Source of the DNA: a virus
Strand: one strand, 5' to 3'
IMG/VR virus record: IMGVR_UViG_3300036770_008166
Span: 51,247-115,246 of that record
DNA: 64,000 nt
Notes under the pieces: model-generated
Told to the model about the DNA's origin: nothing
Databases searched by the model: none
What the model saw: only the letters and a program-made list of their open reading frames with translations
Translations under genes and position numbers: made by a program
In this document: positions 1-42,435 of the stretch, piece by piece
Position numbering within the stretch: position 1 is the first letter of the stretch
Layout of the letters: each line of letters starts with the position of its first letter

Positions 1-86
1 ATCCACGCTATAACGAACGTAGCAAAACTGCCCGTGAACCGCCAGGTCAAGGCCTTCGCTATGCTACGACCACGTGTGTCATTCAA
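1..86 (-). CDS. Partial (runs off window) small membrane protein, DUF2061-like
   Basis: Manual translation from TTG at 86: MNDTRGRSIAKALTWRFTGSFATFVIAW..., resembling the RSxxKxxxWR + hydrophobic helix pattern of DUF2061. Overlaps the stop of the upstream gene. Not in the ORF track. Confidence 0.6.
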   Translation of the reverse strand, partial: MNDTRGRSIAKALTWRFTGSFATFVIAW

Positions 87-912
87 GTCCCATCTCTTTT
101 CTTATCTTCGTGGCGGAAATAGCGTGTGTAGCATCGTCAAATCTTTCTTGCTCTATCCGGTAACCCACGTCTCTACCGTAAGTTATATTGACGATGTTGG
201 GCACTACCTGGATCTCATATTGTCCTTGATAGAGAGGGTCCAGGTCTCGCCTGATAGCGTCTTTTACTGTAGACCACGAAAAAGGATTTGACTGATTCCA
301 GCCCTGGCAATCACGGATCATGATACAGACTTGTCCGGTTTTCGCTATGGCTCGCTCAAACAATGCCCTGTGGCCGGCATGCCAAGGTTGCCAGCGACCC
401 AACATCTGTACAGTTTCTTTCTTCCAGTCAAACACCGGCCTGCGGCGCCGTTCCAGGATATGCTCGCCCACGAATTCTGCCCACTTCTCGGCACGCTGTT
501 CCGTGATGCGGAAGTCATACACTTCAGGTGGCACAAACATTCGGTTTGTGTCCACAAATCTGCCAGCATCAATGGTATCCATCCATATAGTCCAATCGGC
601 TTTGAAATTGTGACGCATCTCGGCCAAGGGTGCCACGAAGTCCACTACAACAAAATCGGCCCAACTTTTGCCTGCCAATTCACGCATGCGATGGCTCTGA
701 CGTATGCGACCGTCTTGGCTGAAATCCCAGTCATTGAATCTTTGCCGGACCTCGTCGGCATTGAACCGTTCCACTGTTGCTCGACTGTCAAATAGACTTT
801 CAGACTCGGAATGGTAAAAATCACTGTGAGCCTCGAGATATTGTTTGAGGTGGTCCGCAAAATAGGTTTTACCTGATCCTGGCAGACCCATTACTAGTAT
901 TTTTTGTGTCAT
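79..912 (-). CDS. Adenylylsulfate (APS) kinase-like P-loop domain fused to an HxGH nucleotidyltransferase domain
   Basis: N-terminal GLPGSGKT Walker A and CysC-like FNADEVR...DFSQDGRIRQ. C-terminal GRWQPWHAGH and ISATKIR, typical of cytidylyltransferase/NMNAT-like folds. Confidence 0.8.
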   Translation of the reverse strand: MTQKILVMGLPGSGKTYFADHLKQYLEAHSDFYHSESESLFDSRATVERFNADEVRQRFNDWDFSQDGRIRQSHRMRELAGKSWADFVVVDFVAPLAEMRHNFKADWTIWMDTIDAGRFVDTNRMFVPPEVYDFRITEQRAEKWAEFVGEHILERRRRPVFDWKKETVQMLGRWQPWHAGHRALFERAIAKTGQVCIMIRDCQGWNQSNPFSWSTVKDAIRRDLDPLYQGQYEIQVVPNIVNITYGRDVGYRIEQERFDDATHAISATKIRKEMGLE

Positions 913-2393
913 GAAAATACCTTTACGTTATAAAGTTGTTGAAATTTGTCAGCATCCTCGCGATCATTGACCATGGGTTCGCCACGGATGTTGAGGCTGG
1001 TGTTCAGCAGCATGGGACAACCAGTGAGCGCATACCAAGCTTCCAGCAGCCTTCGTATGCCAGATCCATCCTGCGGCACAGTCTGCACACGCGCTGTACC
1101 ATCCGCATGCGTAATTGCTGGGAATGATCGCGCGTCTCGTACCCGGGCCACGGTCTGCATGTATCTGCTGGTGGTAAAACCGCGTGGCATGTCAAAATAG
1201 TCCGTGACATGCTCTTCCAGGATGGCAGGAGCGAAAGGTCGGAACTTTTGCCTGCGTTTGATCTCGTTCACTCGATCTTTGATTTCCGGTCCTCTGGGGT
1301 CTGCGAGCAGACTGCGATTGCCCAATGCGCGCGGACCAAACTCAGCACGGCCGCTAGCCACACCAGCAATAGCATGGGCACAGAGATGATCAACAACAGC
1401 ACGCACAGGATAAGGCCCAGGGATATCATGGCCAAGATAAGCATGGCGCCACCTAAGTCTTCCGCCATGAGAAAGAGCCGCTGCGCCCAAGCTTGACCCT
1501 GCGTCTCCGGGGTTGGGCATGATCCAGATGTTTTCATAGATATCTCCTATTCTTGCGTTGGCCACACAGTTCAGGGCCACTCCGCCCATGTATACCAGAT
1601 TATCACTGCTCACAAGGCTGCGGGCCCGTATCATGACATTGCGTATCATCTGTTCCGTGAGATGTTGTGCAGCCGCGGCCAAATCTTCGGGCTTGTAGAA
1701 ATCAAGTTCGTACTCGTCAAATCCTATGTGCAGATTGCGTCGCATGGTCAGATCGATCATGCTTTCCACGCATTGATCTCGCAGCCAGGCAGTGCCGAGA
1801 CCATTGCCATAGGCTGCCATGCCCATGGTGATGTATTCTTCTTCCATGGGTTTAAGTCCCACAGCCCGGGTTATGGCGCTGTAAAACAATCCAATGCTGT
1901 GCGGATAACCTTGGCGCCACACGCGCCGATAATGTGCGCGACCACGCTCATCATACCAGGCTCGAAATATACTGATGGTGTCCATCTCTCCGATGGCATC
2001 TATGACCACTACCGCAGCATCTCGGAACGGCGAAGTTTGGAATCCTGCAGCGGCATGGCTGAGATGATGCGGCCACGAGCGTTCACGATTGGCCGCACGC
2101 TGATACCAGGCACCTAGATGCCGTCTGATGGCTTGACCGGTGGTCCAAGGACCATACTGTCTCTGGCCGCTGCGCCATTGTTGCCAGTTGTGCAACCATG
2201 GACGTTCATAGAATGCCACATCGTTTATGTCAAAATCGCAGCATTCACGCAAAAGGTCTGGATGTATGTTTGGATCATTCTTGATCTTGCTGTATCTCTC
2301 TGAATGGCCGGCAAATAGGATATCCCCTCGATCACTCAGCACAGTCACGGCAGCATCATGAAATCCTGCGCTGATGCCTAGTATGGTTTTCAT
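909..2393 (-). CDS. Carbamoyltransferase, NodU/CmcH/TobZ family
   Basis: HDAA, HHLSHAA, DAIGE, GGVALNC, PGDAGSSLGAA, EFGPRALGNRSLLA, FRPFAP and LNTSLN motifs. Confidence 0.95.
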   Translation of the reverse strand: MKTILGISAGFHDAAVTVLSDRGDILFAGHSERYSKIKNDPNIHPDLLRECCDFDINDVAFYERPWLHNWQQWRSGQRQYGPWTTGQAIRRHLGAWYQRAANRERSWPHHLSHAAAGFQTSPFRDAAVVVIDAIGEMDTISIFRAWYDERGRAHYRRVWRQGYPHSIGLFYSAITRAVGLKPMEEEYITMGMAAYGNGLGTAWLRDQCVESMIDLTMRRNLHIGFDEYELDFYKPEDLAAAAQHLTEQMIRNVMIRARSLVSSDNLVYMGGVALNCVANARIGDIYENIWIMPNPGDAGSSLGAAALSHGGRLRWRHAYLGHDIPGPYPVRAVVDHLCAHAIAGVASGRAEFGPRALGNRSLLADPRGPEIKDRVNEIKRRQKFRPFAPAILEEHVTDYFDMPRGFTTSRYMQTVARVRDARSFPAITHADGTARVQTVPQDGSGIRRLLEAWYALTGCPMLLNTSLNIRGEPMVNDREDADKFQQLYNVKVFS

Positions 2394-2531
2394 GTTGCAA
2401 TCTTTTCATGATATGCTGTCTTTCTTGATCGCTATAACTGGTCCACGATGCGATTTCTTGCAAGGTCTTTCCTCCACATCCGAGGCAACGATTGTTGGCA
2501 TTTGAAAGAGCTTGATACACGACGTGATCAT
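2356..2531 (-). pseudogene. Frame-disrupted DUF1289-like small Cys (Fe-S/Zn) protein
   Basis: ATG at 2531 reads MITSCIKL..., while the adjacent frame reads ...NANNRCLGCGGKTLQEIASWTSYSDQERQHIMKRL. Together they match the DUF1289 pattern (PCxxxC...CxGCxRTxxEIxxW...E), split across two frames. Confidence 0.55.
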
Positions 2532-2629
2532 TTATAGATGAATGGATCTCGTTTGCGCAATTCCTTCAGTTTTTTGCGATACCGTATTTCAAGACGTATA
2601 CGATCTATGATTTTTTTGATCCAATTCAT
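2528..2629 (-). CDS. 33-aa basic peptide MNWIKKIIDRIRLEIRYRKKLKELRKRDPFIYK
   Basis: ATGA overlap with the upstream stop (2626-2629), AGGAG SD upstream, and ATGA overlap at its own stop. Below the ORF-track length cut-off. Confidence 0.75.
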   Translation of the reverse strand: MNWIKKIIDRIRLEIRYRKKLKELRKRDPFIYK

Positions 2630-3759
2630 TTCTGTCTCCTCAGGGCCATTTCCTGTATTTGCCGATGCTGATAATCTCGATCACTCCAGTGATACGGATA
2701 CTCGTTTGACGCATCATTGGTACGGATAGCCAACACGTCTGTGTAGTTAGTCAACATTTGCACTATGGTTGCATGATCCTGGGTACCAAATGACGCTACA
2801 AGATCCACCTGGCCGATCTTGGGATGACCAATGGTGAGTTCTGGATCACCTGGATCAAAACCATTGTGACTCAGCCAAGATCTAAAGTTTTGCAGCTGGG
2901 TTTGGCGCCACTCAAATTTTTGTGGATTCCGGCCCCATTCGATATCAAAGTCACCCGCGGCTTCGGTCTGTCCACGCATGGTGGTACTGACCAATTCAGC
3001 AACGTTCCGTCCCTCATCACAGAAGACTTCCCAATGGTGTTTTCCAACAGCTTTGTTGACGCCAACATATACTGCTCCAGTATCGCGATTTAGGGTGCCA
3101 ATACCGAACAGTTCAAAATCCTGTGAGTCAAGCGCAAATCTGGGTGCTTCTAGCCAACACATCAGTTGGCTAGGGCATAACCAATCTGGAGCTTCGCGCT
3201 GTTTTCGATAGCTCAGTGCCCAGGATTCAAATTCGTGACACAACAAATTCAACTGTCTGATATGCCATCTGGTGTCATCGTTGGCACGTAGATAAAATTT
3301 GCTGGGATTGCCACTGATACCTTGTAGATCTTCGAAATATCGATGCAACCAGTTAAGACGATCTTGTATGACGTTTCTACCGCAGGCACGTCCGTACCTG
3401 GGATCATCACTTATGGTGTTGGCCAGTAAAAATTCATCATCAATGCGATACCCTATGTCAGCTTGGTTGATGGCCTGGATGCTCTGATTGATCCGGTCAC
3501 AGATGAACGCACCATTTCTATCACTGTCTGGGAACCCCATGAAGCAAAAATTTTTTTCAAGATGGAAATTATCTCGCAACAAATGATTCAAAGCCTGCAA
3601 CCATTTGCCGGCCAGAGAATTATCTGCAACATCTATGAAAATCGACAGTGGCACCGACTGCCTATTACGCAGCACCATTTCGATTCTATCTAATGTTTTG
3701 CCACCATCCATATATGTCCTGATCTTGTTGTAAAATATCTTGCATGGTATATCGGTCAT
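2626..3759 (-). CDS. Hypothetical protein in the radical-SAM cluster (start may be 3711)
   Basis: 377-aa ORF coupled to its neighbours. Two related helical motifs, LNWLHRYFE and LNLLCHEFE. Confidence 0.75.
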   Translation of the reverse strand: MTDIPCKIFYNKIRTYMDGGKTLDRIEMVLRNRQSVPLSIFIDVADNSLAGKWLQALNHLLRDNFHLEKNFCFMGFPDSDRNGAFICDRINQSIQAINQADIGYRIDDEFLLANTISDDPRYGRACGRNVIQDRLNWLHRYFEDLQGISGNPSKFYLRANDDTRWHIRQLNLLCHEFESWALSYRKQREAPDWLCPSQLMCWLEAPRFALDSQDFELFGIGTLNRDTGAVYVGVNKAVGKHHWEVFCDEGRNVAELVSTTMRGQTEAAGDFDIEWGRNPQKFEWRQTQLQNFRSWLSHNGFDPGDPELTIGHPKIGQVDLVASFGTQDHATIVQMLTNYTDVLAIRTNDASNEYPYHWSDRDYQHRQIQEMALRRQK

Positions 3760-5017
3760 CGCGGATCGACTCTAGCCGCAAAATCCGGGCTTTGCCTCGA
3801 CGCAATGCCTGCTCATAATCATGGGGCCATTGTTCTGCGAAGGTAGGTCGTGTTTTCAATTGCTGTAGGGTATCACGCAGGGCACCCGTGACATAGGCCG
3901 ACAACGAATCTACTTTTTGATCCAGCACGGTCCTGGGCAAGGCCAACGGACTCAAGATGATGTCGGGTGAAAAACTGAATATGACCTTGCTTAACACATC
4001 AACACCAAACCGCTGAGCCAGTGCCTGTACGTTCCTGACTTCGAACAGACCTGGCAAAGTCAGGGTAAAATCGATCCTCATCTGCCGGGGGGATTTTTGT
4101 TGGTCCACGCCTCGTTGGAAATTCTCACACCAGTGCGCAAAATCAAGCCCTGTGCGTATATATTCACCTGTTGCTCCGGTTCCGTCGAGGCTGGCACAGA
4201 TCTGCCAGTCCCGTAAATGCGAGAGAATATCCTGGTAAAGATCCAGGCCGCGATAGCGCACACGGCTAAGATTAGTGTTGTAACGAGCATAAACATTGGC
4301 ACCATCCCCCAGTTCTATTATGCGGCGCATGTACCGCCAGTGCTGTTCATACATCAAGGGTTCGCCGCCTACCCAGTACACTTCTTCCACACGATGCTGT
4401 TCTACTGCTTCAGCAAATTCTTGTTCGACCTGTGTGTCTTGGAATTTGCTGATTTGGTCTCGCACTTCGGGCATCATCCAGGCATTCTTAGGATTGCTCC
4501 AGTCGATCATGTCATGCTGACGTTGTTCACTCTCCCAAGCGCTGCTCAACATGTCCCCGCACATGCGACATTTGAAATTACAAAGATTTGAGAAACGATA
4601 GTCCCAACTCACTGGCAACATGGTTGTATAACCATCTGGTTCGGTAGCTGCCATGGCATCATGATATTTGTGGTCGAACAGACGATTAAAATACGTGCGA
4701 TATACATCGGTATTGAGCAGTTTGTTGTTGCACACATCGCATTCGGGCAATGTTTCACCTGCCATCATGCGACGACGCACACTGCGCATATGATCGCTGT
4801 TCCAATGTTGCACGAGAGTCATGGGGTGATATCGACCCGTGCCAGATTCAGTATCAATGTATTGACGGAAATTCTGCGCTGGCTCACGACTGGCACAGCA
4901 CATTCTACGCTCGGTCTGGGGGCTGAGATAGGTATGTGTCCAGGGTGCCATGCACAGAGTTTCGGGTCTACTGGCTGTCAAAGTCGTATCCGTATATCTT
5001 GGCCAGCTCGGGCTCAA
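3686..5017 (-). CDS. Radical SAM protein with N-terminal twitch/SPASM-like Cys domain
   Basis: CNFKCRMC, GGEP, YNTN, SLDG; N-terminal CMAPW...MCC...CDVC. Confidence 0.9.
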   Translation of the reverse strand: MSPSWPRYTDTTLTASRPETLCMAPWTHTYLSPQTERRMCCASREPAQNFRQYIDTESGTGRYHPMTLVQHWNSDHMRSVRRRMMAGETLPECDVCNNKLLNTDVYRTYFNRLFDHKYHDAMAATEPDGYTTMLPVSWDYRFSNLCNFKCRMCGDMLSSAWESEQRQHDMIDWSNPKNAWMMPEVRDQISKFQDTQVEQEFAEAVEQHRVEEVYWVGGEPLMYEQHWRYMRRIIELGDGANVYARYNTNLSRVRYRGLDLYQDILSHLRDWQICASLDGTGATGEYIRTGLDFAHWCENFQRGVDQQKSPRQMRIDFTLTLPGLFEVRNVQALAQRFGVDVLSKVIFSFSPDIILSPLALPRTVLDQKVDSLSAYVTGALRDTLQQLKTRPTFAEQWPHDYEQALRRGKARILRLESIRDDRYTMQDILQQDQDIYGWWQNIR

Positions 5018-6188
5018 CTAGGGCCATGTTCTGATTCCGTTTGCGATCTAGATCGCGTATCTTCATGCGCAGCATGAAGCCATCGGTACTGGCACCGGCC
5101 TGCATGAAGTCTATCACACGATCAAATTCTGCTTTGAACTGTTCCGGTACAGCAGACGATCTAATTTTGTGTTCGATAAGTTTTTTAGCATGATCAGGTA
5201 ATGTAGCGATACTGAAATACCATGCATCATGCATCATGTTCCAGTGAACGAAATCAAACTGTTGCTGCTGTGCCCATTCGGCAAACTCCGGCAAATAAAA
5301 AACATTGAACACATTGATGGTGCAGCACGCCTGCAATGTAATGTTGTTTGATCGGGCCTTGAGTTCCTGAAACCGGTGTATGTTGTCGAGCACCACGGAC
5401 CACTCAGCATTGGTGCGTTGATATTCAAATCGCTTGCCGAGATCGTCAAGGCTGAATGCTATTTCTACCAGGCGGAAATGCGGCCAGATCTCTAGAGCTT
5501 GCTGGGGGAAATGTGTGCCATTGGTGTTGTAATGTATCTCGATGTTGCCGGCAACACCTTGGTCCACCAGGCTTTTCAACATGTCGAAATGTTCGGATAT
5601 CATGAAAGGCTCGCCACCGGTAAATTCGATGTATTTTATGTCCTTGGATATTCGTGCAATCTCGGGCCAAAAATCTGAATTCTCGCGCGGCCAGGCCCCG
5701 GCTCTGAGCATCTGATAAGCGAAGGATTTTTTCCTATCGGCATCTGGCGGCATATCATTGATTTCTTCTGCGGCAATCTGGCTGCTGCTCCATGAACCAC
5801 AGATGCGGCATTTGAGATTGCAGATATTGCCCAGTTTAAGATCAAGAAACATCAAGGGCTTGGCCTCGGTGCTCCACTCTTGATCAGTGATCATGTGCTT
5901 GAGTCTGTCCAGAGTGTGCATGCGCTTGCTGGTACGACCCGAGCGTTCTTCGTTCCAGCATTTTCGACAGGTCTGGGGGCGTTGGCCGGCCAAGAACTGC
6001 GATCTAAGATTTTGCATGTAGGCACTGTTGCGGATACGATCAAATTGAGTATTCTGCAGTTGGAACTTGTTGCCATCTTCGTCGGTGATTTCGTCATCGG
6101 TCAAACAGCAAGGCCTCACTGTGCCGATGGGGCTGGCCTCTAGGCTGACCCAGGGCAGAACACAGAATTTATCGTTGGGCAGTTTCAT
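4968..6188 (-). CDS. Radical SAM protein with N-terminal twitch/SPASM-like Cys domain
   Basis: CNLKCRIC, GGEPF, YNTNG, SLDD; N-terminal CVLPW...PCC...CRKC. Confidence 0.92.
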   Translation of the reverse strand: MKLPNDKFCVLPWVSLEASPIGTVRPCCLTDDEITDEDGNKFQLQNTQFDRIRNSAYMQNLRSQFLAGQRPQTCRKCWNEERSGRTSKRMHTLDRLKHMITDQEWSTEAKPLMFLDLKLGNICNLKCRICGSWSSSQIAAEEINDMPPDADRKKSFAYQMLRAGAWPRENSDFWPEIARISKDIKYIEFTGGEPFMISEHFDMLKSLVDQGVAGNIEIHYNTNGTHFPQQALEIWPHFRLVEIAFSLDDLGKRFEYQRTNAEWSVVLDNIHRFQELKARSNNITLQACCTINVFNVFYLPEFAEWAQQQQFDFVHWNMMHDAWYFSIATLPDHAKKLIEHKIRSSAVPEQFKAEFDRVIDFMQAGASTDGFMLRMKIRDLDRKRNQNMALVEPELAKIYGYDFDSQ

Positions 6189-12434: not shown

Positions 12435-12435
12435 A

Positions 12436-13476: not shown

Positions 13477-14324
13477 ATTTTGGTCTTTTGTCGTTTGACA
13501 TTGGCCAGATGTTGAATTCGCGACGCGAGGTCTCGACTACTGGGACACTGTCTGCATACAGCATCAGGGCGACCGAAATTGCTCAGGAATTGATCTAGAT
13601 CTTGATCACTGCAATCCGGAGCGATGCCATCTCTGAGAAAAGGCTGCCACAGTTCCGCATTGGGCATGCCAAATTTGATCAATATGTCTTTCAATAGTCC
13701 CACGGTGCTACATTTGTACACACGACCTTGATAGAGCAAAGGACAAGTTTGCTGGCAACATACCTCAAACGCGGCTTTGGGCTCGTTGTCATGTGGTCGC
13801 ATGTTGATATAAGAACCTTGGAAAGTCTTCCAAAATACATCAGGCCTGCTGACCTGGAATCTGAATCTATTGCCAGTTTCGAACCTATCGATACCGTATT
13901 CTTTGACAGGCCGCCAGTTGAACCTGTTCATGATGTACTGGATGGTGTTTTCTAAGGCCTGGTCATTGACATGAACACCGATCTTGAACACTATGTTGCC
14001 CACATCTGCTGCCAAATCCACAATGTCGAGATTGCGTTCTAAAAGCAATCCATTGGTTGTGAAACGTATCTGAGCTGTTGGCATCAAAGACCGGATTCCC
14101 TGTATCCACTGTCGGATTTCGGGATTGAGCAAGGGTTCGCCACCCAAGATACCAAAATCTGGTATGTCTACTCTGACCAACCAGGCCTGTATCTCTTTCT
14201 GGGCTTGTGACCATGGAATCCATCCTTTGTGCGCCACATCGCTGTAGTTGGTACAACCTGAGCATGCAAGATTACAAGACTGGGTAGCCATCATTTCTAC
14301 AAATGGCAGCAAGGGTAGATTCAT
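13473..14324 (-). CDS. Radical SAM protein with C-terminal Cys-rich (SPASM-like) region
   Basis: CNLACSGC, GGEPLL, TTNG; C-terminal CCQQTC...YKC...CRQC. Confidence 0.9.
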   Translation of the reverse strand: MNLPLLPFVEMMATQSCNLACSGCTNYSDVAHKGWIPWSQAQKEIQAWLVRVDIPDFGILGGEPLLNPEIRQWIQGIRSLMPTAQIRFTTNGLLLERNLDIVDLAADVGNIVFKIGVHVNDQALENTIQYIMNRFNWRPVKEYGIDRFETGNRFRFQVSRPDVFWKTFQGSYINMRPHDNEPKAAFEVCCQQTCPLLYQGRVYKCSTVGLLKDILIKFGMPNAELWQPFLRDGIAPDCSDQDLDQFLSNFGRPDAVCRQCPSSRDLASRIQHLANVKRQKTKI

Positions 14325-14331
14325 CTCGAGC

Positions 14332-15342
14332 TCAAAACAATTGTTGGGTCCATGCCGCCGGAGTTTTATTTGATCTGATTTCTATCGGCAAATGATACAC
14401 AAAAGGTTTGCTCCCTTTTTTCTTGATATAATCTACCAACTTTATTAATGAATTACGAATCGGCACAGTTTCCTTATAGCCAAAATACTGTCTAATTTTG
14501 TCGGAAGAACATACCGCATGTTTTACTTCCTGGGGGCGTGGTGCTACAAAAATGGGATCCAGGTCGATTCCGATAATTTCCGCCAACAGGGTTGCCAAGT
14601 CCATTATGGTGATAGGATCTCTGTCTGGACCAATGTTAAAAGTCTGGTTGATAGACATTTCATCAGTCGCCAATCGCCCCAGACAATCTACGGCGTCTGC
14701 TATGTCAGTAAAACATCTGGTTTGCGATCCATCGCCATAGATTATGGGTTGGCGACCTTGCAACATGAGATTGGTCATTATGCTGGCCACATTGCGGAAA
14801 GGATCATCATATTTTTGCCTGGGACCAATGATGTTGTGCGGTACTGCGATCACCAGATCAAGACCGTGTATGGTTGATAGATTTTGTAACAAAAGTTCAG
14901 AGCTGTATTTGGCTATACCATATGGATCTTGCGGACGACACATCATGTGTTCTTGAAAAGGCTGGCCATCAAAGTTGCCATATCTAGCCATGCTGGAACA
15001 ATGCACGAACCTTGTCACTCCGGCCATGATCGCAGCAGTAAAAGCATTCACCGAAATTTGCACTGTATTTTCCACGATCAAACTAGGTGAAAACACAGAC
15101 AATCCTTCGTACGCTGTACACGCAGTATGATAGACAATGTCACAGTCATGCATCAACTTATCGAGACCTGACAGAGATCTGAGATCGTGGTCATAAAATT
15201 CCACGTCATCGCTTACATTAGATCTATATCCGCCCAGCAGGTTATCACAACCGGTTACCTGATGTCCTTGTTGCAAAAAGTGATCCGCAAGATGACTGCC
15301 TACAAATCCGGCTACACCCGTAATAAAAATTTTCTTGGTCAT
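14332..15342 (-). CDS. NAD-dependent NDP-sugar epimerase/dehydratase (extended SDR)
   Basis: TGVAGFVGSH Rossmann motif, SSMARYG, catalytic YGIAK, GDGSQTRCF. Confidence 0.93.
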   Translation of the reverse strand: MTKKIFITGVAGFVGSHLADHFLQQGHQVTGCDNLLGGYRSNVSDDVEFYDHDLRSLSGLDKLMHDCDIVYHTACTAYEGLSVFSPSLIVENTVQISVNAFTAAIMAGVTRFVHCSSMARYGNFDGQPFQEHMMCRPQDPYGIAKYSSELLLQNLSTIHGLDLVIAVPHNIIGPRQKYDDPFRNVASIMTNLMLQGRQPIIYGDGSQTRCFTDIADAVDCLGRLATDEMSINQTFNIGPDRDPITIMDLATLLAEIIGIDLDPIFVAPRPQEVKHAVCSSDKIRQYFGYKETVPIRNSLIKLVDYIKKKGSKPFVYHLPIEIRSNKTPAAWTQQLF

Positions 15343-16295
15343 GTACCTATTTCTAAGATCTGTAAGTTGTAGTCAAAGTTCTTGGCTACCATGTAGTTAT
15401 GTTCCAACTGGAATCGCATGCACATATACAATTCTTCCAGTTCTTCACGAGATTTCGAGGCCAACCAATCTATCAAATTTAGGATTTTGATATATCTGTC
15501 GCCTTCTGCAAATCCATCATAGTCTTCGTTCCAAAATTCATTGAATGTATAAAATCCCAACTGTCTTACATATTCTAGATAATTTTCCGAAGCCATCGCT
15601 ATAAACGGTTTTTTCATCAGAATAGGTCGCACCAATTTTTCGGTAGGAAAAAACGTTCGCCCCTTGATATTGGGTTCGCTAATGATGTCAACAAAAATGT
15701 TGGCATACAATTGTAAAAGACCTTTATCGTAGGTAAAGAGATGTCCGTGAGGTTGATAACCTAGATTTTTTGGTTCGTGCATGTCGATCCAGTTAGCTAG
15801 ATAGGTCAAGCTGTCGGGGTCATATACAAACAATTTATTGACTTCGCATAGCGCACGCTGATCTGGATCGCGGAAATCTACAGGAAATATTATTTCAGAA
15901 TCGGCTCTATATTGATTGCACAGATAGGCTGCAATGCCTAATCTGTTGGCCGTTGGGCGGCCAAAAAAAGCTCCAAATATCTTGGTTTGATTCCATACAC
16001 CCGACGTGTTGAGATCGTATTTTTCAATGTCCAGAAAAAATCTACCTACATTGACTTTTGATATACCATATCGATCATGCGCTTCCAATTGATTATGTGT
16101 CATGATTTGCACTGAGGTGAAGTTGAATTTATCAAGTATGTCATAGAATCCTGACGCTCTAAGACAGTGTGCTTCTGGGTTGACTATGATACAGATATCA
16201 CTGCCTTGATTGTCATTCAAGAACGCAATCAGATCTGGGATGTTCCACAGCATATCATTGGTTACTGTGACAGTGAATTCTTTGTGATCTACCAC
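15339..16295 (-). CDS. Putative glycosyltransferase-like protein (TEK family)
   Basis: FVDIISEP...FPTEKLVRP...KPFI...LGFYTF...WNEDYD; paralogous to 12436-13476. Confidence 0.65.
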   Translation of the reverse strand: MVDHKEFTVTVTNDMLWNIPDLIAFLNDNQGSDICIIVNPEAHCLRASGFYDILDKFNFTSVQIMTHNQLEAHDRYGISKVNVGRFFLDIEKYDLNTSGVWNQTKIFGAFFGRPTANRLGIAAYLCNQYRADSEIIFPVDFRDPDQRALCEVNKLFVYDPDSLTYLANWIDMHEPKNLGYQPHGHLFTYDKGLLQLYANIFVDIISEPNIKGRTFFPTEKLVRPILMKKPFIAMASENYLEYVRQLGFYTFNEFWNEDYDGFAEGDRYIKILNLIDWLASKSREELEELYMCMRFQLEHNYMVAKNFDYNLQILEIGT

Positions 16296-17215
16296 CCCTC
16301 TTGTCTCCGTATCACATCAATCTCTCTTACCATGATACCTTGATTTTGCCAGTTTGAGCGATAGTGGCGCTTGAAAAAAGCACTCTGTTCGGCCTCCAAC
16401 ATGGCTACTGGAAGGTCCAGCTGATCATGCAATTCGACGCCGATCTTGCCGGCCATGACTCTGGGGTCCGACGTTTCCACCGTGGTCCATAGAGCCTGCA
16501 AAGAATCAAAATCCTGCACTTCACGATGATCCCAATTGGTCAACATGGTCATGTAGGTACCTTGACGAGCTCCGGCTATGGCCCAGATGCCATGCTCCAC
16601 GTCAGTACCTACGTTATGCCATATGGTGAGATGATCAAGATTGCGTTGGTGCACGCGGTCTCGGAATTCTGCTGCAGAAGGTCGTCGACCTTGGTCTAGG
16701 CACATCTTGACACCCTCTCGGAATCCGGCACGCCAGGCCTGGAAGGCGGATCCATTGGGATAAGTCACTGACCAACAGTCGTGCATGGCCCAATAAAGCG
16801 GATCGAAACAGAATTCTACCTGTGTGGCATCCGATCCGTCCGTGTTTTCGTGGGTGGTCATGTTGGCAACAAAGGTACGAGTCCATGAGCTGAGGCCGCC
16901 ATTGCCATACATGAGGCCATTGATGGTGTTGTAAGCTCTCCAACGCAGCACAGCAGATTCCCAGGTCACATCTGGAAACTCTAGCACCTGATTGAAAAAC
17001 ACCGGATCTGGCAGGTTGTCCCCATCAATCAAGATAAAACGCTCTGTGGCACTGGCCTCGCCGGCTGCCTTGTGTGCTGCATCTGATCCTTTGATGCCAT
17101 GCACTCTCTGAGCCCAAGGTACCATGTTCCGGATGGTGATCCAGAACTCTTCACACTGAGGCTCATCATAGGTCAGATAGATACAGTCTAAATCTGCCAC
17201 GTCAATCTTGGTCAT
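16289..17215 (-). CDS. GT-A-fold glycosyltransferase-like protein
   Basis: N-terminal beta-strand YLTYDEP, then AHKAA helix and FILIDGDN (DxD) in the GT2-like position. Confidence 0.6.
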   Translation of the reverse strand: MTKIDVADLDCIYLTYDEPQCEEFWITIRNMVPWAQRVHGIKGSDAAHKAAGEASATERFILIDGDNLPDPVFFNQVLEFPDVTWESAVLRWRAYNTINGLMYGNGGLSSWTRTFVANMTTHENTDGSDATQVEFCFDPLYWAMHDCWSVTYPNGSAFQAWRAGFREGVKMCLDQGRRPSAAEFRDRVHQRNLDHLTIWHNVGTDVEHGIWAIAGARQGTYMTMLTNWDHREVQDFDSLQALWTTVETSDPRVMAGKIGVELHDQLDLPVAMLEAEQSAFFKRHYRSNWQNQGIMVREIDVIRRQEGW

Positions 17216-17537
17216 AGGTTTTCATGCTCCACTTTTGTACGTCGCCATGCGATCTCACGATCATGACATCGTAAACATCACAACTTGTGCCCTGTTCGCT
17301 TGGCACCAGTTTGGCGGGTTGTAGCCAAGGATGATACTGGTGCAGCCGTCCGTCTCTTACTCGAATCCATTTGCTGCCACGTGCATAGGTGGCTTGATCG
17401 ATGTCTATGTATGTACCAGGCAGATCCTCCATGCTGTAGCATATGAGTCGACCACGGTCATCGTGATACAATCGATAAAACACAGGCTGAGCCGTGGGTG
17501 CTGCATGCAGGATCTGCCAAAATTCTTCGGGGGTCAT
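17202..17537 (-). CDS. Hypothetical protein
   Basis: Start moved to MTPEEF (17537), which gives an ATGA overlap with the upstream stop. Confidence 0.7.
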   Translation of the reverse strand: MTPEEFWQILHAAPTAQPVFYRLYHDDRGRLICYSMEDLPGTYIDIDQATYARGSKWIRVRDGRLHQYHPWLQPAKLVPSEQGTSCDVYDVMIVRSHGDVQKWSMKTYDQD

Positions 17538-18298
17538 GGTAGCCAGTTCTTTTCGTGGTAGTGAAAAGCGCCCCATTGCACCACGGTATCAATGCGCAGT
17601 CGTCCGTTATCATGTTCCCATACCAGATTTTTTGACCAAGGTCCCACGGTACCAGCAGTGCGAGGTTTCATATGCACTATCTGCGGATACGAAGCAAAAG
17701 GCATGGTCACACGTTCCGGACCCATGACAGCTGCAGCTATGGCGTAGACCAGGTCGGTGCTGGCCTGATCTTCCGCGAATCGCAGGAGTTGTTTTACCTG
17801 TGGCCAAGTCTGGAATATCTGCCGTACCAGATCAAAAAATTCTTTGGCTGTGGCAGACAGGCGCCAATAGGTCACAGCATTGTACACATCTGGCAAGTGG
17901 TTTTCACGGAAACATCTACGATACGGAGAATTCGTTACTAGCTGATCGTGCCAATCTCGGCATCCTGTGCTGATCACTAGATCACGATGCCGGAGCATGT
18001 TCCACCAATGATCTATGGCGCTGACAATCAGCATGTCAGCTTCCAGCTTGATGGTCTCGCGGAAAGGTGTGTGTCGGAATACAGCAGCATCATTGGCATA
18101 GGCCGTGGCGGCTGGATCTATCAGGCGCACATGATCAAATTCAGGCGCCGACACTATCTGGTCTGTGATCAGACAGGTCCGGGCTGCTGGGTGCCACGAT
18201 TTCAAACTGGCAAACAGGCGCTGTGCCATGGACACATAGTCCGCGGTGTCGGTGTTCACTGCCACACACACATATCCCTGCTCTTCAATGGGCCGCAA
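17534..18298 (-). CDS. GT-A (GT8-like) glycosyltransferase
   Basis: LITD, TPFRETIKLEADM (DxD variant), STDLVYA and late HMK/HYH motifs. TTG start at 18298 with GGAG SD preferred over the track start at 18439. Confidence 0.65.
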   Translation of the reverse strand: MRPIEEQGYVCVAVNTDTADYVSMAQRLFASLKSWHPAARTCLITDQIVSAPEFDHVRLIDPAATAYANDAAVFRHTPFRETIKLEADMLIVSAIDHWWNMLRHRDLVISTGCRDWHDQLVTNSPYRRCFRENHLPDVYNAVTYWRLSATAKEFFDLVRQIFQTWPQVKQLLRFAEDQASTDLVYAIAAAVMGPERVTMPFASYPQIVHMKPRTAGTVGPWSKNLVWEHDNGRLRIDTVVQWGAFHYHEKNWLP

Positions 18299-19070
18299 CG
18301 ATGTCTCCCAGCTGGCGCTTGCACATGGCATGGAAATCTTGATCCTGCAGCGAGCATCGGCGCGGACGGTCCGCTGGACCATATTGCACAATAAATTGGT
18401 CCTGATCTTGTTGCACGAGTTTGTGTTCAGGCAACACATTTATCATGGCACACACTCGAGGCATCACAGGATCTACATGCCCGTTGACCAAAGGCAGTGC
18501 CATGCTGAGTGCATAATCATTTCGATACAGGGGCGAGTCTACGTGGAAAAGATCTCGATAGTGCTGCCAGTTATCGCGTATCATGCGCATGCTGTCAAAT
18601 ATGAATCGAGCTTGATTGTCACGATTGAACGCTACCACCGTGGCCCAGTATTGGGGGTGGTGATGCCGGCCAAATGTGTTCCAACTGTGAGAACCACCTG
18701 CAGCGATGGCATGTCGGAAACACCACAATCTGTCATGATCCATGATGACTCTCAGTGCATCGCTGGCGATAACATAGTCAGCATCCAACAACAGTGTACG
18801 ATCATAAGGAGAAAGATCAAACGCATCACAGCGATCACGATTGTGCCAGGGCACTGTATGACCTAGATCTTCGAACCATCTGTCACGATGGCCCGACGGC
18901 GCTGCTATCTTGATTACCCGATCAAATACTGCGTCATTGACATCTTGATCGGTAATCAGCGTGGTAGGCAGATCCAAGTGCCTGAGGATGCGCTGTGCGC
19001 TCCAGGCCGCCATGGCCACATAGTCCAAGGCGCCGGCTCCTACAGCGAAAATCACTGCGCCCTGTGTCAT
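18285..19070 (-). CDS. GT-A (GT8-like) glycosyltransferase
   Basis: TLITD, SPYDRTLLLDADY (DxD), RNDYALS and late HAMCK; paralogue of 17534-18298. Confidence 0.7.
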   Translation of the reverse strand: MTQGAVIFAVGAGALDYVAMAAWSAQRILRHLDLPTTLITDQDVNDAVFDRVIKIAAPSGHRDRWFEDLGHTVPWHNRDRCDAFDLSPYDRTLLLDADYVIASDALRVIMDHDRLWCFRHAIAAGGSHSWNTFGRHHHPQYWATVVAFNRDNQARFIFDSMRMIRDNWQHYRDLFHVDSPLYRNDYALSMALPLVNGHVDPVMPRVCAMINVLPEHKLVQQDQDQFIVQYGPADRPRRCSLQDQDFHAMCKRQLGDIVAAH

Positions 19071-19372
19071 CGTTGACTACGCAGGCCTTCTGATTCAGTC
19101 AACCAGGCTGCCAGTTGTTCTTGCCAGCGCTGTTGGCTCAGCTGCATAAGTTCTGTCACTGTCACACGCACAGGATTTTGGTATAGATCCAGCAGCACTG
19201 CCTCTGTATCAGGACAGGTCAGCAGCGTGGTCTGCAGTTCGGGTCCAGCTCGCCACATACCTCCGGCATGGGCGAACAGCATCTTGGCTTCGTATTTTTC
19301 TCGCAGGATGCGTTTCTGGCTTTCATGATCGAATCGGCTGCGGATGTGTTGGGTCAAGGCATCAGTATCCAT
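19067..19372 (-). CDS. Hypothetical protein, first gene of the modification operon
   Basis: 101-aa ORF, ATGA overlap with the next gene, directly downstream of a sigma70-type promoter. Confidence 0.75.
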   Translation of the reverse strand: MDTDALTQHIRSRFDHESQKRILREKYEAKMLFAHAGGMWRAGPELQTTLLTCPDTEAVLLDLYQNPVRVTVTELMQLSQQRWQEQLAAWLTESEGLRSQR

Positions 19373-19377
19373 GCCTT

Positions 19378-19406
19378 ATTATATATGGTTTTTTTGGCTA
19401 GGTCAA
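19378..19406 (-). promoter_or_regulatory. Sigma70-type promoter TTGACC-N17-TATAAT for the modification operon
   Basis: Minus strand: TTGACC (19406-19401), 17-nt spacer, TATAAT (19383-19378), then AAGGC and the ATG. Confidence 0.8.
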
Positions 19407-20372: not shown

Positions 20373-20381
20373 GAGTCGCTC

Positions 20382-37900: not shown

Positions 37901-38327
37901 CTGCATCCGGCCCGCCTGGCAGCCAAAAATACTGACTGTAGTTGATCAAGGTATCAAAATCAACCATGGGATCCCAGGCATAATATTCACTGGTGAACAG
38001 TCGGTCTGGTCTTGTCTGGGTGCCGCCTTGATAGCCAATGGCATCCAGCAAACCGGGATAGGTGATGAGATCCTGCACATCATCGGTATCAGGTTTGAGA
38101 CTGATCACTGCCGGCTCAAGCTGATAATCGGCGCGTGTTTTGTCAGGCTCTACGATGTAGCGATCATCTGGATCAACGCCTGGTCCCACCGAGCGTCCAA
38201 TGTAGCCTTCACTTTTGCGGAACCTGGGTTCTTGTATCAGTGTGTCCAGAGTGGCAGCCAGGAACTGTCTGTTGGCCGGTGTCTGGAAAATCTCTGGCAG
38301 GAAATCTACTGAACGGGTGCGAGCCAT
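22986..38327 (-). CDS. Giant (5113 aa) baseplate wedge/tail-associated multidomain protein
   Basis: Uninterrupted ORF directly after gp6-like. YIQEVKPYH wedge-type motif, FG-GAP-like repeats, CBM5/12-like modules and Ig-like VxVDG...DY repeats. Confidence 0.85.
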
Positions 38328-42007: not shown

Positions 42008-42029
42008 GCGTCTGAGCCTCTGTGTGTTT

Positions 42030-42037
42030 TATTTATT
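42030..42037 (-). promoter_or_regulatory. Late promoter-like AATAAATA
   Basis: Intergenic, upstream of the gp6-like gene, which has a GAGG SD. Confidence 0.6.
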
Positions 42038-42431: not shown

Positions 42432-42435
42432 GCTG

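What the first reader, a model, noticed from the sequence alone, without database searches (positions are those of the whole stretch)
79..19406. 19-kb phage operon of radical-SAM enzymes, glycosyltransferases, carbamoyltransferase and sulfate-activation-like enzyme: an uncharacterised modification pathway
Seen: about 21 co-oriented, mostly overlapping genes behind one promoter. They comprise 3 GT-A-like and 4 TEK/GT10-like proteins, 6 radical SAM enzymes, an NDP-sugar epimerase, a NodU-type carbamoyltransferase and an APS-kinase/NTase fusion. The operon directly follows Thr/Ser-rich tail genes. Known: epimerase + GT + carbamoyl + PAPS chemistry builds decorated glycans (e.g. Nod factors); twitch radical SAMs such as BtrN oxidise sugars or cyclitols; phage carbamoyltransferases can modify 5hmC. 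Inference: the phage assembles an elaborate, radical-tailored glycan on its virion proteins, the host surface or its DNA. No nucleotide hydroxymethylase is visible here, so virion or surface glycosylation is slightly favoured.
Basis: partly seen in the sequence, partly recalled or inferred. Interest (0 to 1): 0.8.

Follow-up and report, generated by a model that had tools for sequence, protein, structure and literature searches.

The report
Jumbo-phage glycan operon with five radical-SAM enzymes
Right behind its tail-fibre genes, this uncultured giant phage carries a widely conserved, separately promoted operon of soluble sugar-transferring enzymes and five distinct, uncharacterised radical-SAM enzymes, which most likely builds and chemically edits a sugar chain on a cytoplasmic target (probably the fibre proteins), though neither product nor target has been seen.

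Summary
Window 79-19406 (minus strand) holds 19 large and 2 small co-oriented, mostly overlapping genes behind one near-consensus sigma70-type promoter.

Content:
- five N-terminal-twitch radical SAM paralogues (NCBIfam NF033640, 286-392 bits against a cut-off of 170) and one small radical SAM;
- four 'TEK' proteins with a predicted GT-B fold and an invariant T-E-K motif, as I recall for GT10;
- three GT-A-like proteins;
- an SDR sugar epimerase/dehydratase;
- a NovN/TobZ-type O-carbamoyltransferase with a near-invariant 33-aa partner peptide;
- a weak P-loop/HxGH fusion, for which sulfate activation is not supported.

The core order (fibre genes, g19, two GT-A, g16, g15, TEK, N9, N7, N6, N5, N4, g3) recurs in about 60 of 80 IMG/VR loci sampled. 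A reduced form sits in the cultured Ralstonia phage RsoM2USA. No protein has a membrane segment. Related genomes, one of them complete, lack lipid-carrier priming enzymes and most DNA-hypermodification entry enzymes tested.

Best reading (about 0.5): cytoplasmic assembly and radical tailoring of a glycan, probably on the Ser/Thr-rich fibre proteins.

Rivals: a free metabolite, protein-directed radical SAM chemistry, the host surface, DNA.

This scan found the same island before on other DNA (e1-5964075).

The parts
19378..19406 (-). sigma70-type promoter TTGACC-17-TATAAT heading the operon
   Evidence: 11 of 12, best in 20 kb. Conserved in relatives: and searches also show a terminator-like hairpin in 18 of 51 gaps.
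19067..19372 (-). g19, 101-aa core protein of unknown function
   Evidence: Present in 60 of 80 loci. No Pfam, PHROG or PDB-profile match.
18285..19070 (-). g18, GT-A/GT8-like transferase (DAD motif)
   Evidence: Invariant D96/D98 in alignment A2. Atlas nearest named clusters are nucleotide-diphospho-sugar transferase and GT8. Fold not modelled here.
17534..18298 (-). g17, paralogue of g18 (EAD variant); start probably TTG at 18298 behind GGGAGA
   Evidence: blastp; phrog_1903; alignment; start candidates.
17202..17576 (-). g16, 124-aa conserved unknown
   Evidence: 46 of 80 loci. No PDB-profile match.
16289..17215 (-). g15, GT-A-fold protein (invariant LIDGDN) with a helical C-terminal half; the most conserved gene of the cassette
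   Evidence: 70% mean column identity. AF2 model pLDDT 89. Foldseek and VIA hits are all GT-A or sugar-nucleotidyltransferase folds: Z 8.6 / rmsd 3.3 / 137 aligned for 9q8z_B, and PBCV-1 A64R 2p6w at Z 7.6.
15339..16295 (-). g14, TEK-family GT-B glycosyltransferase
   Evidence: 31% identity to g11. TEK motif kept.
14332..15342 (-). g13, SDR NDP-sugar epimerase/dehydratase (accessory)
   Evidence: Pfam Epimerase 159 bits, GDP_Man_Dehyd 128 bits. Below every NCBIfam equivalog cut-off. Present in 18 of 80 loci.
13473..14324 (-). g12, small radical SAM without an auxiliary domain (accessory)
   Evidence: Radical_SAM 41.9 bits. 17 of 80 loci.
12436..13476 (-). g11, TEK-family GT-B glycosyltransferase (the modelled member)
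   Evidence: AF2 pLDDT 91. All top Foldseek and VIA hits are GT-B: T4 BGT Z 9.5, FUT9 Z 8.8, H. pylori FucT Z 8.5. E248-K249 invariant. At least 574 relatives in IMG/VR.
11253..12434 (-). g10, divergent TEK paralogue
9857..11260 (-). g9 = N9, N-terminal-twitch radical SAM, orthogroup N9
   Evidence: NF033640 306.8 bits. Orthogroup SH-aLRT 100. It is the only radical SAM kept in the reduced RsoM2USA cassette.
8758..9915 (-). g8, TEK paralogue (T8) between N9 and N7
7431..8771 (-). g7 = N7, N-terminal-twitch radical SAM
   Evidence: NF033640 297 bits. 34% identity to N9. Tree.
6185..7444 (-). g6 = N6, N-terminal-twitch radical SAM
   Evidence: NF033640 392 bits. In other metagenomic records it occurs fused in frame to N5; 6 of 6 checked fusions are N6-N5.
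4968..6188 (-). g5 = N5, N-terminal-twitch radical SAM
   Evidence: NF033640 347 bits. N6-N5 fusions.
3686..5017 (-). g4 = N4, N-terminal-twitch radical SAM
   Evidence: NF033640 286 bits. Tree.
2626..3759 (-). g3, conserved 360-377-aa unknown that follows N4
   Evidence: 31 of 80 loci, at locus ends. No PDB-profile or Atlas lead.
2528..2629 (-). 33-aa basic peptide gene ending ...RKRDPFIYK, overlapping the g3 stop
   Evidence: Found by tblastn in 24 loci at 47-91% identity, with a near-invariant C-terminal half. Present in 17 of 18 loci that carry the carbamoyltransferase.
2356..2520 (-). 54-aa DUF1289-like ORF (CxGCG...EIA.W motif)
   Evidence: Conserved in L004 and L010 only. The family name is from memory.
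909..2393 (-). g2, O-carbamoyltransferase of the NodU/CmcH/NovN/TobZ superfamily (accessory)
   Evidence: Carbam_trans_C 169 bits and Carbam_trans_N 114 bits. NovN E 1e-52, GdmN, TobZ.
79..912 (-). g1, P-loop kinase-like domain fused to an HxGH nucleotidyltransferase-like domain (accessory, function unsure)
   Evidence: APS_kinase 24 bits against cut-off 21.1. apsK 17.4 bits against 138.7. NMNAT models E 5e-6. PDB NMNAT E 0.009.
19407..22184 (-). g20 (Ser/Thr 29%) and g21 (fibre-like N-terminus), the conserved upstream neighbours and candidate acceptors
   Evidence: PHROG virion structural protein. Synteny in 60 of 80 loci. g20 orthologues have a median S+T of 30%, n=62.

Best explanation
The operon is the lineage-wide glycan module of a clade of jumbo myophages.

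Shown:
- It is one transcription unit with its own host-type promoter.
- All its products are soluble.
- It holds three GT-A-like and one to four GT-B (TEK) transferases, five anciently diverged N-terminal-twitch radical SAM orthologues that all keep both cluster motifs, and variable decorating enzymes.
- The core order is fixed next to the fibre genes across the clade.

Inferred:
- The transferases assemble a short oligosaccharide in the cytoplasm on a soluble acceptor. The most probable acceptors are the Ser/Thr-rich fibre proteins g20/g21 encoded immediately upstream.
- The five radical SAM enzymes (N9, N7, the N6-N5 pair, N4) then abstract hydrogen from specific sugar carbons to epimerise, oxidise, dehydrate or cross-link residues. 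This would create rare sugars without dedicated NDP-sugar pathways.
- The SDR, small radical SAM, extra TEK copies, carbamoyltransferase with its 33-aa partner peptide, and g1 vary the outer decoration from phage to phage.
For: - Family and motif assignments.
- GT-B fold and TEK motif.
- GT-A fold and DxD motifs.
- Fixed synteny with the fibre genes in about 60 of 80 loci, and five orthogroups at SH-aLRT 99-100.
- Reduced cassette (g19, two GT-A, g15, N9) directly after a fibre-like gene and the tail tube and sheath genes in cultured RsoM2USA.
- Conserved promoter.
- No membrane segment.
- No Bac_transf or WecA/MraY priming enzyme in a complete relative and four partial genomes, with positive controls.
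- N6-N5 in-frame fusions, plus one g15-like-GT-A/NTwi fusion that links transferase and radical SAM.
- The N-terminal domain matches the auxiliary-cluster region of BtrN, a sugar/cyclitol-oxidising twitch enzyme (E 1.7e-4).
- The closest solved relatives of g2 (NovN, TobZ) carbamoylate sugar hydroxyls (substrates from my own knowledge).
- g20 orthologues are persistently 30% Ser+Thr.
- Low-GC accessory block between g15 and N9.
Against: - No glycan, acceptor or radical SAM product has been observed. The acceptor is inferred from gene position alone, and fibre proteins are often Ser/Thr-rich anyway.
- A sigma70-type promoter preceded by a terminator separates the enzymes from the late structural operon. 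That fits early functions (DNA, host takeover) as well.
- Bacterial NF033640 members sit in non-glycan contexts (ACP/ketosynthase; halogenase-like/PhyH). A Bacteriovoracaceae chromosome has eight copies in a row with no GT recognisable by the cassette's own proteins. So the radical SAM set does not need these GTs.
- Fold matches are middling (Z 8-9.5), and no TEK, g15, g17 or g18 protein reaches any Pfam GT model.
- g3, g16 and g19 are unexplained.
- The g15-NTwi fusion is a single sequence on one 6-kb contig.
Confidence: 0.5

Rival explanations
1. The operon makes a free, soluble, heavily tailored oligosaccharide or aminoglycoside-like metabolite. It would act on the host or on competitors and would not be attached to the virion.
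For: - The enzyme repertoire parallels aminoglycoside and aminocoumarin pathways: a BtrN-like twitch domain, a NovN/TobZ-type carbamoyltransferase, and a DegT aminotransferase plus SDR upstream.
- An MFS transporter lies on the same contig.
- Bacterial NF033640 members lie in natural-product-like clusters.
- A cultured cyanomyovirus paper calls a similar trio 'antibiotic synthesis genes' (PMC12801897).
Against: - No DHQ-synthase-type cyclitol synthase in five related genomes, one of them complete.
- No amidinotransferase/ADI family hit either.
- The core is fixed inside the tail/fibre module in about 60 loci and is inherited vertically with the lineage, unlike a mobile metabolic island.
- The aminoglycoside-like genes are the accessory ones, not the core.
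Confidence: 0.15
2. The five radical SAM enzymes act on protein rather than sugar. They would make RiPP-like cross-links or epimerisations in fibre or other virion proteins, and the GTs would glycosylate the same protein separately.
For: - The closest solved core is the RiPP maturase TvgB (8vpo, E 8e-10).
- SPASM/twitch enzymes are mainly peptide maturases.
- Arrays of 5-8 copies without recognisable cassette GTs exist in Bdellovibrionota.
- Small conserved proteins (g16, g19, the 33-aa peptide) are present.
Against: - No RRE or other peptide-binding domain was detected by Pfam or NCBIfam.
- The 33-aa peptide tracks the carbamoyltransferase, not the radical SAM genes. It is missing after g3 in four cassettes that have all five.
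- One natural fusion joins a g15-like GT-A domain to an NTwi.
- The N-terminal domain matches BtrN, not a peptide maturase.
Confidence: 0.15
3. The operon remodels the host cell surface (LPS, capsule or S-layer glycan) during infection, for example to block superinfection.
For: - Host-type promoter, consistent with early expression.
- Large 'LPS-like' gene clusters in T4-like cyanophages are a known precedent (my own knowledge, not checked here).
Against: - No protein has a membrane segment.
- No phosphoglycosyl transferase of either class in a complete relative and four partial genomes, with controls positive in 9-12 of 14 genomes.
- No flippase, polymerase or ABC exporter lies in the cassette.
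- Host enzymes could still supply these steps.
Confidence: 0.08
4. The operon hypermodifies phage DNA with a sugar-based adduct.
For: - The top VIA hits of the TEK model include T4 beta- and alpha-glucosyltransferases (Z 9.5 and 8.7).
- Early-type promoter.
Against: - Those Z scores tie with fucosyltransferases (Z 8.5-8.8), and the invariant TEK motif is, as I recall, the GT10 donor-binding motif.
- No TGT/DpdA in five related genomes.
- Only ThyX on this contig.
- The cassette sits in the tail module.
- Two tests are weak. The Tet_JBP search found nothing, but its control rang nowhere, so it is uninformative. The complete relative G002 has one ThyA-family gene (352 bits), and I did not test whether it is a thymidylate synthase or a hydroxymethylase.
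Confidence: 0.07

Closest known systems
NCBIfam NF033640, N_Twi_rSAM (twitch domain-containing radical SAM protein)
   Same: The five operon proteins, and a sixth at 53031-54233, score 246-392 bits against a cut-off of 170. All have four N-terminal Cys for an auxiliary cluster, CxxxCxxC and GGEP.
   Different: The family is a catalogued subfamily. I found no characterised member and no paper. Here it occurs as five fixed, anciently split orthologues in one operon, with N6 and N5 fused in other genomes.
Twitch radical SAM sugar-tailoring enzymes: BtrN (solved, 4m7t), and NeoN and AviX12 from the literature
   Same: They carry one auxiliary [4Fe-4S] domain plus a radical SAM core. The N-terminal domain here aligns to BtrN residues 183-260. 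AviX12 (Boll 2006, cited in PMC8326336) and NeoN (PMC10991966) are radical SAM enzymes that change the stereochemistry of an already assembled glycoside; for AviX12 I saw only the paper's title, and that reading of its chemistry is my own recollection.
   Different: In those enzymes the auxiliary domain is C-terminal; here it is N-terminal. Sequence similarity is limited to generic core and cluster motifs. No reaction has been shown.
GT10 alpha-1,3-fucosyltransferases (H. pylori FucT 2nzw/5zoi, human FUT9 8d0o)
   Same: GT-B fold (Z 8.5-8.8, 12-13% identity). Invariant T-E-K in the C-terminal Rossmann domain at the position I recall for the GT10 donor-binding Glu-Lys.
   Different: No match to Pfam Glyco_transf_10 or to any Pfam, NCBIfam or PHROG model, nor to any PDB sequence by profile. 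Donor and acceptor are unknown. T4 DNA glucosyltransferases score equally by fold.
Virus-encoded virion glycosylation: mycobacteriophage capsid/tail glycosylation (Freeman 2023, PMC10527164, cited in PMC12801897) and chlorovirus PBCV-1 A64R (2p6w)
   Same: Soluble virus-encoded GT-A enzymes encoded beside structural genes. The g15 model matches A64R (Foldseek probability 0.99; VIA Z 7.6).
   Different: As far as I know, those systems use two to a few GTs and no radical SAM enzymes. Here seven GT-fold proteins accompany six radical SAM enzymes. Glycosylation of the virion has not been shown.
O-carbamoyltransferases NovN, GdmN, TobZ, NodU
   Same: g2 has both Carbam_trans domains and E 1e-52 to NovN.
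   Different: g2 is 494 aa against 570-700 aa for those enzymes, and far below the NodU equivalog cut-off (132 against 1000 bits). It is paired with a near-invariant 33-aa basic peptide, which I do not know for those enzymes.

Membership tests
NF033640 N_Twi_rSAM | Whole-protein score above the curated cut-off (170 bits) | tested here: met
   g4 285.8, g5 346.7, g6 392.1, g7 297.2, g9 306.8 bits; sixth copy 246 bits. g12 does not qualify (27.6 bits).
NF033640 N_Twi_rSAM | Auxiliary-cluster (twitch/SPASM-like) Cys domain placed N-terminal to the CxxxCxxC radical SAM core | tested here: met
   Pfam SPASM at residues ~9-97 and Radical_SAM at ~119-320. Invariant C32, C50, C92, C95, then C139, C143, C146 and GGEP in all six copies. 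The N-terminal domain aligns to the BtrN auxiliary-cluster region.
GT-B glycosyltransferase (TEK proteins g8, g10, g11, g14) | Two facing Rossmann-like domains | tested here: met
   g11 AF2 model pLDDT 91. All of the top 44 VIA rows (47 of the 50 shown) and all but one Foldseek row are GT-B enzymes: Z 9.5 / rmsd 6.0 / 256 aligned for 1c3j, Z 8.8 / 4.9 / 216 for 8d0o. Only g11 was modelled.
CAZy GT10 fucosyltransferase | Sequence match to the family model (Pfam Glyco_transf_10) | tested here: not met
   No Pfam family at E<=0.01 for any of the four TEK proteins. PDB profile search was empty.
CAZy GT10 fucosyltransferase | Conserved ...TEK... donor-binding motif in the C-terminal domain | tested here: met
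   T247-E248-K249 invariant in the 4 paralogues. E248-K249 are invariant and T247 at least 90% conserved in the 45-sequence family alignment. That this is the GT10 motif is my own knowledge.
CAZy GT10 fucosyltransferase | GDP-fucose donor use | not testable with these tools
   Needs an enzyme assay.
GT-A glycosyltransferase (g15, g17, g18) | Nucleotide-diphospho-sugar transferase fold | tested here: met
   g15 residues 2-155: all 50 VIA rows are GT-A or sugar-nucleotidyltransferase folds, Z up to 8.6. g17 and g18 were not modelled; only an Atlas lead exists, so for them the result is inconclusive.
GT-A glycosyltransferase (g15, g17, g18) | DxD metal/nucleotide-sugar motif | tested here: met
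   g15 has invariant D64-G-D66. g18 has D96-A-D98. g17 has E-A-D, a variant.
NodU/CmcH/TobZ O-carbamoyltransferase superfamily (g2) | Both Carbam_trans_N and Carbam_trans_C domains above Pfam cut-offs | tested here: met
   113.6 and 169.1 bits. NovN E 1e-52, TobZ E 2e-31.
NodU proper (NF041651 equivalog) | Score above the equivalog cut-off (1000 bits) | tested here: not met
   132 bits.
APS kinase / PAPS synthase (g1) | APS kinase domain above curated cut-offs, plus an ATP-sulfurylase domain | tested here: not met
   Pfam APS_kinase 24 bits, just over 21.1, but covering only profile positions 5-94 of 152. NCBIfam apsK 17.4 against 138.7. The C-terminal ~110 aa match NMNAT-type HxGH models (E 5e-6), and no sulfurylase model matched.
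Extended SDR NDP-sugar epimerase/dehydratase (g13) | Pfam Epimerase / GDP_Man_Dehyd match | tested here: met
   158.9 and 128 bits. No NCBIfam equivalog cut-off is reached (LegB 123.6 against 475; GalE 96 against 262), so the specific reaction is inconclusive.
RiPP radical SAM/SPASM maturase system | RRE/PqqD-like peptide-binding domain and a co-inherited precursor peptide | tested here: inconclusive
   No such domain in the Pfam or NCBIfam output. The only conserved small peptide follows the carbamoyltransferase rather than the radical SAM genes. Structure-based RRE detection was not run.
Virion glycosylation system | Carbohydrate covalently attached to a structural protein | not testable with these tools
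   Only position next to the Ser/Thr-rich fibre genes.

The most novel reading that the evidence does not exclude
The five N-terminal-twitch radical SAM orthologues form an ordered 'glycan-editing line', with N6-N5 as a physical pair. They would rewrite the stereochemistry or oxidation state of individual residues of a protein-linked oligosaccharide after ordinary host NDP-sugars have been polymerised. The phage would thus place rare, enzyme-resistant sugars on its tail fibres without encoding the matching nucleotide-sugar pathways. This would be a new logic of glycan diversification. It would also give the first function to NF033640 and to three families without a Pfam model (TEK, g15, g3).
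Probability: 0.2. Interest if true: 0.9.

Novelty: new variant of a known kind. Interest (0 to 1): 0.72.

Why it matters
Virus-encoded glycosylation is known, but only with a handful of ordinary glycosyltransferases. This module couples seven glycosyltransferase-fold proteins to five fixed radical SAM orthologues of a family with no known reaction.

It is core to a widespread clade of giant aquatic and soil phages: at least 574 TEK-encoding stretches in IMG/VR, and contigs up to 357 kb. Four of its conserved families (TEK, g15, g3, g19) have no Pfam model.

A reduced version sits in a cultured phage, Ralstonia phage RsoM2USA ORF348-354, where every gene is annotated 'hypothetical'. The chemistry and the target can therefore be tested directly.

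If the product decorates fibres, it bears on host recognition, on resistance to host or environmental glycosidases and proteases, and on how jumbo phages diversify adsorption structures. Whatever the target, it would assign a first function to a large radical SAM subfamily that is also present in Bdellovibrionota, Bacteroidota, Paenibacillus and others.

Tried and rejected
Searches that gave nothing useful:
- Megablast of the 20 kb against 50,697 phage records: no match.
- tblastn of TEK g11 against phages: none.
- PDB profile searches for TEK, g18, g15, g3, g19 and g16: nothing meaningful.
- Single-sequence N6 against PDB: nothing.
- PHROGs for ten unknowns: only phrog_1903 for g17.
- ESM Atlas for g3: no usable hit, poor model.
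- Literature search for 'N-terminal twitch/SPASM', NF033640 and N_Twi_rSAM: zero papers. 'Jumbo phage + radical SAM + glycosyltransferase': zero.
- A six-paralogue alignment was too divergent for the search for related loci; I replaced it with an N6/N5 alignment.

Tools and caps:
Contexts therefore came from the search for related loci only.

Ideas rejected:
- A PAPS/sulfation role for g1: scores marginal, no sulfurylase domain.
- The 33-aa peptide as precursor for the radical SAM enzymes: it tracks the carbamoyltransferase instead.
- A 41-aa alternative-frame ORF between the peptide gene and g2: not conserved.

Uninformative: the Tet_JBP search, because its control rang nowhere.

Full report
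**Where the window lies.** The window is bases 51247-115246 of a 115-kb linear IMG/VR virus record that CheckV rates 33% complete. Its baseplate wedge protein is 34-39% identical to those of jumbo myophages such as Sinorhizobium phage Phosso, Agrobacterium phage Atu_ph07, Salicola phage SCTP-2 and the Rak2-like coliphages. PHROGs name baseplate hub, wedge and virion proteins at 20-50 kb. So this is a fragment of an uncultured jumbo phage. No phage in GenBank is close at the DNA level.

**The observation.** All long ORFs between 79 and 19372 lie on the minus strand. I number them g1 (79-912) to g19 (19067-19372).
- Junctions overlap by 4-74 nt or leave gaps of 7 nt or less.
- The 134-nt space between the small peptide gene and g2 holds a conserved small ORF.
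- At its 3' end the operon meets convergent plus-strand genes of the same contig.
- At its 5' end, the 34-nt gap after the fibre-like gene g20 carries TTGACC-17-TATAAT, 11 of 12 and the best promoter-like site in 20 kb.
- The total count of promoter-like sites is at chance level. But in 51 distinct homologous gaps from related phages, 57% hold a match of 10/12 or better, against 1.7% of 1000 coding-region controls. Eighteen gaps also have a GC hairpin that overlaps the -35 box.

The unit therefore has its own conserved host-type promoter and is insulated from the fibre operon upstream.

**Radical SAM genes.**
- g4, g5, g6, g7 and g9 score 286-392 bits on NCBIfam NF033640 (cut-off 170).
- Pfam places the SPASM-like Cys domain at the N-terminus and the radical SAM core after it.
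- All copies keep four N-terminal Cys, CxxxCxxC and GGEP, so all look competent.
- A profile of the paralogues finds only generic relatives in the PDB: TvgB, viperin, MoaA and BlsE for the core. The N-terminal domain aligns to residues 183-260 of BtrN, its auxiliary-cluster region.
- g12 is a small radical SAM with no auxiliary domain.
- A sixth NF033640 copy lies elsewhere, at 53031-54233.
- I found no paper on this family.

**Glycosyltransferase-like genes.**
- g8, g10, g11 and g14 are paralogues with no Pfam, NCBIfam or PHROG match.
- g11 has more than 200 metagenomic homologues, none with a Pfam domain.
- An AlphaFold model built on 45 of them (pLDDT 91) matches GT-B enzymes almost exclusively in Foldseek and in an exhaustive VIA search. 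Top hits are T4 beta-glucosyltransferase (Z 9.5), FUT9 (Z 8.8), plant FucT13 (Z 8.7), T4 alpha-glucosyltransferase (Z 8.7) and H. pylori FucT (Z 8.5). These Z values are tied and middling.
- T-E-K is invariant in all four paralogues; E-K is invariant and T at least 90% conserved across the 45-sequence family alignment. From my own knowledge this is the GT10 donor-binding motif.
- g15 is the most conserved protein of the unit, at 70% mean column identity with an invariant LIDGDN. Its model (pLDDT 89) has an N-terminal GT-A/nucleotidyltransferase fold. Every one of the top 50 VIA rows is of that fold, including PBCV-1 A64R and SunS.
- g18 and g17 are paralogues with DAD and EAD motifs. Their nearest named Atlas clusters are nucleotide-diphospho-sugar transferases and GT8. 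Their fold was not modelled.

The evidence is strong for g11 and g15 and weaker for the rest.

**Other genes.**
- g13 is an extended SDR NDP-sugar epimerase/dehydratase. No equivalog cut-off is met.
- g2 is an O-carbamoyltransferase: both Pfam domains, and E 1e-52 to NovN, then GdmN and TobZ. It is not NodU itself (132 against 1000 bits).
- g1 is a P-loop domain with marginal APS-kinase and KTI12 scores, fused to about 110 aa that match NMNAT-type HxGH models. No ATP-sulfurylase-type model matched, so sulfate activation is not supported.
- g3, g16 and g19 have no detectable relatives of known function.
- A 33-aa basic peptide gene (2528-2629) overlaps the g3 stop. tblastn finds it in 24 loci with a near-invariant C-terminal half. 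It is present in 17 of 18 loci with the carbamoyltransferase. It is absent after g3 in four cassettes that have all five radical SAM genes. It is therefore tied to g2, not to the radical SAM enzymes.

**Synteny.** An IMG/VR scan with the TEK alignment found at least 574 encoding stretches, and 80 loci were fetched. I searched their ORFs with the operon proteins.
- The order g22 g21 g20 g19 A18 A17 g16 g15 T N9 [T8] N7 N6 N5 [T8] N4 g3 [Cb] recurs in about 60 loci.
- A maximum-likelihood tree places each window copy in its own phage orthogroup, N4, N5, N6, N7 and N9, each with SH-aLRT 99-100. The five enzymes are thus ancient, non-redundant partners.
- The SDR (18 loci), the small radical SAM (17), the carbamoyltransferase (15), g1 (3) and the number of TEK copies vary.
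- In the window these accessory genes form a low-GC block (0.43-0.45, against 0.52-0.55 in the structural genes) inserted between g15 and N9.
- Several 'MAG' contigs labelled as bacteria carry the full cassette, some with the fibre genes as well, and are probably mis-binned phage.

**A cultured example.** Ralstonia jumbo phage RsoM2USA (MG752970) has a reduced cassette: g19, A18, A17, a small ORF, g15, an N9/N7-type radical SAM and a second g15-like gene (ORF354-348). It lies directly after a fibre-like gene, the tail tube (ORF356) and the sheath (ORF359). All these genes are annotated hypothetical. The structural assignments come from PMC8504454. Vibrio phage K566 has four NF033640 genes but none of the GT families.

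**Clues to the target.**
- No cassette protein has a 19-residue window above 1.71 on the Kyte-Doolittle scale, so none looks membrane-bound.
- In a CheckV-complete relative (356,865 bp) and four partial genomes there is no Bac_transf and no WecA/MraY-type phosphoglycosyl transferase. Controls rang in 9-12 of 14 genomes. This argues against phage-driven lipid-linked export.
- The same genomes lack TGT/DpdA and a DHQ-synthase-type cyclitol synthase.
- This contig has ThyX.
- The complete relative has one ThyA-family gene at 352 bits. I did not test whether it is a thymidylate synthase or a hydroxymethylase.
- The Tet_JBP search was uninformative, because its control rang nowhere.
- The gene just upstream, g20, is 29% Ser+Thr. 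Its 62 orthologues have a median of 30%, against 10-13% for the enzymes.

These points favour a soluble cytoplasmic acceptor and make the fibres the leading candidate. The evidence is positional only.

**Clues to how the parts work together.** Longer homologues of N6 are mostly 816-850-aa proteins. All six that I checked are N6-N5 fusions in the same order as the adjacent genes, and dozens more clusters share that length. This implies a physical pair. One 1365-aa protein joins a g15-like GT-A domain (E 2e-25) to an NF033640 domain (E 6e-76) and a second radical SAM core. It links transferase and radical SAM chemistry, but it is a single sequence. Other fusions carry FkbM-type or class I methyltransferases, or TPR repeats.

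**Bacterial relatives.** NF033640 relatives occur at 289 places in GTDB species genomes. They are usually N6-like and present in one to five copies, without TEK, g15 or g3.
- In Paenibacillus the neighbours are two carrier proteins, two ketosynthases, a ketoreductase and a GT2.
- In a Saprospiraceae MAG the neighbours are a second copy, a WelO5-like oxygenase, PhyH, a methyltransferase and an ABC ATPase.
- A Bacteriovoracaceae contig has eight copies in a row, with sisters or near-relatives of the phage orthogroups among them, and no GT recognisable by the cassette's own proteins. Its neighbouring genes I recognise as Obg and L27.

The radical SAM set can therefore work without these GTs. This keeps a non-glycan substrate possible.

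**Verdict.**
- Glycan-type chemistry and co-inheritance hold.
- Sulfation does not.
- The target is narrowed but not identified.

I put about 0.5 on cytoplasmic assembly and radical tailoring of a glycan on a soluble acceptor, most likely the fibre proteins. The rivals are a free metabolite (0.15), protein-directed radical SAM chemistry (0.15), host-surface remodelling (0.08) and DNA modification (0.07).

The module is a new variant of virus-encoded glycosylation, built around an uncharacterised radical SAM family. RsoM2USA makes it experimentally tractable. This scan reported the same island on another genome (e1-5964075) with a similar conclusion. I treated that as a lead, not as support.

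Noticed in passing
window 53031-54233 (+): A sixth NF033640 radical SAM (246 bits) sits alone between a Metallophos (SbcD/gp47-like, 51566-52582) gene and an SbcC/gp46-like gene (54230-55993). It is on a long branch and groups loosely with the four copies of Vibrio phage K566.
   Followed up: partly
window 22986-38327 (-): A single 5113-aa ORF lies just upstream of g22, g21 and g20, between them and the baseplate wedge gene (38327-42007). It was not analysed.
   Followed up: no
L001 (contig 31300-51299): 1337-3327, 4655-9296, 10519-13546: Left of the window the contig encodes a class I methyltransferase, an MFS sugar transporter, a MoxR AAA ATPase with a VWA/DUF2201 partner, ThyX, a second SDR epimerase and a DegT-type aminotransferase. 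Three unknown ORFs (16544-19830) converge on the operon's end and have no Pfam hit.
   Followed up: partly
window 10000-16000: GC falls to 0.43-0.45, against 0.52-0.55 in the structural genes. The dip falls exactly over the accessory block T10-T11-small rSAM-SDR-T14 inserted between g15 and N9, which suggests later acquisition.
   Followed up: partly
window 2356-2520 (-): A 54-aa ORF with a CxGCG...EIA.W motif, which I recognise as DUF1289-like, lies between the 33-aa peptide gene and the carbamoyltransferase. It is conserved only in the two closest relatives (L004, L010).
   Followed up: partly
L086-L092 (GTDB genome contigs): Contigs binned as Haliscomenobacter, Legionellales, Verrucomicrobia TMED56, Betaproteobacteria TMED41 and Rickettsiales MED606 carry the phage cassette, two of them (L090, L092) with the fibre genes. 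They are probably phage contigs mis-binned into MAGs.
   Followed up: no
L095 (Bacteriovoracaceae UBA6144 contig DIVA01000093.1) 4040-16036: Eight NF033640 genes lie in a row next to genes I recognise as Obg and L27. Sisters or near-relatives of the phage orthogroups are among them, and no GT recognisable by the cassette's proteins is present. This may be the source of the phage set, or a sink for it.
   Followed up: partly
P0200-P0319 (metagenomic proteins): Many marine homologues of g15 are 840-1200-aa proteins with two tandem g15-like domains plus an unidentified C-terminal part. This echoes the two g15-like genes of RsoM2USA.
   Followed up: partly
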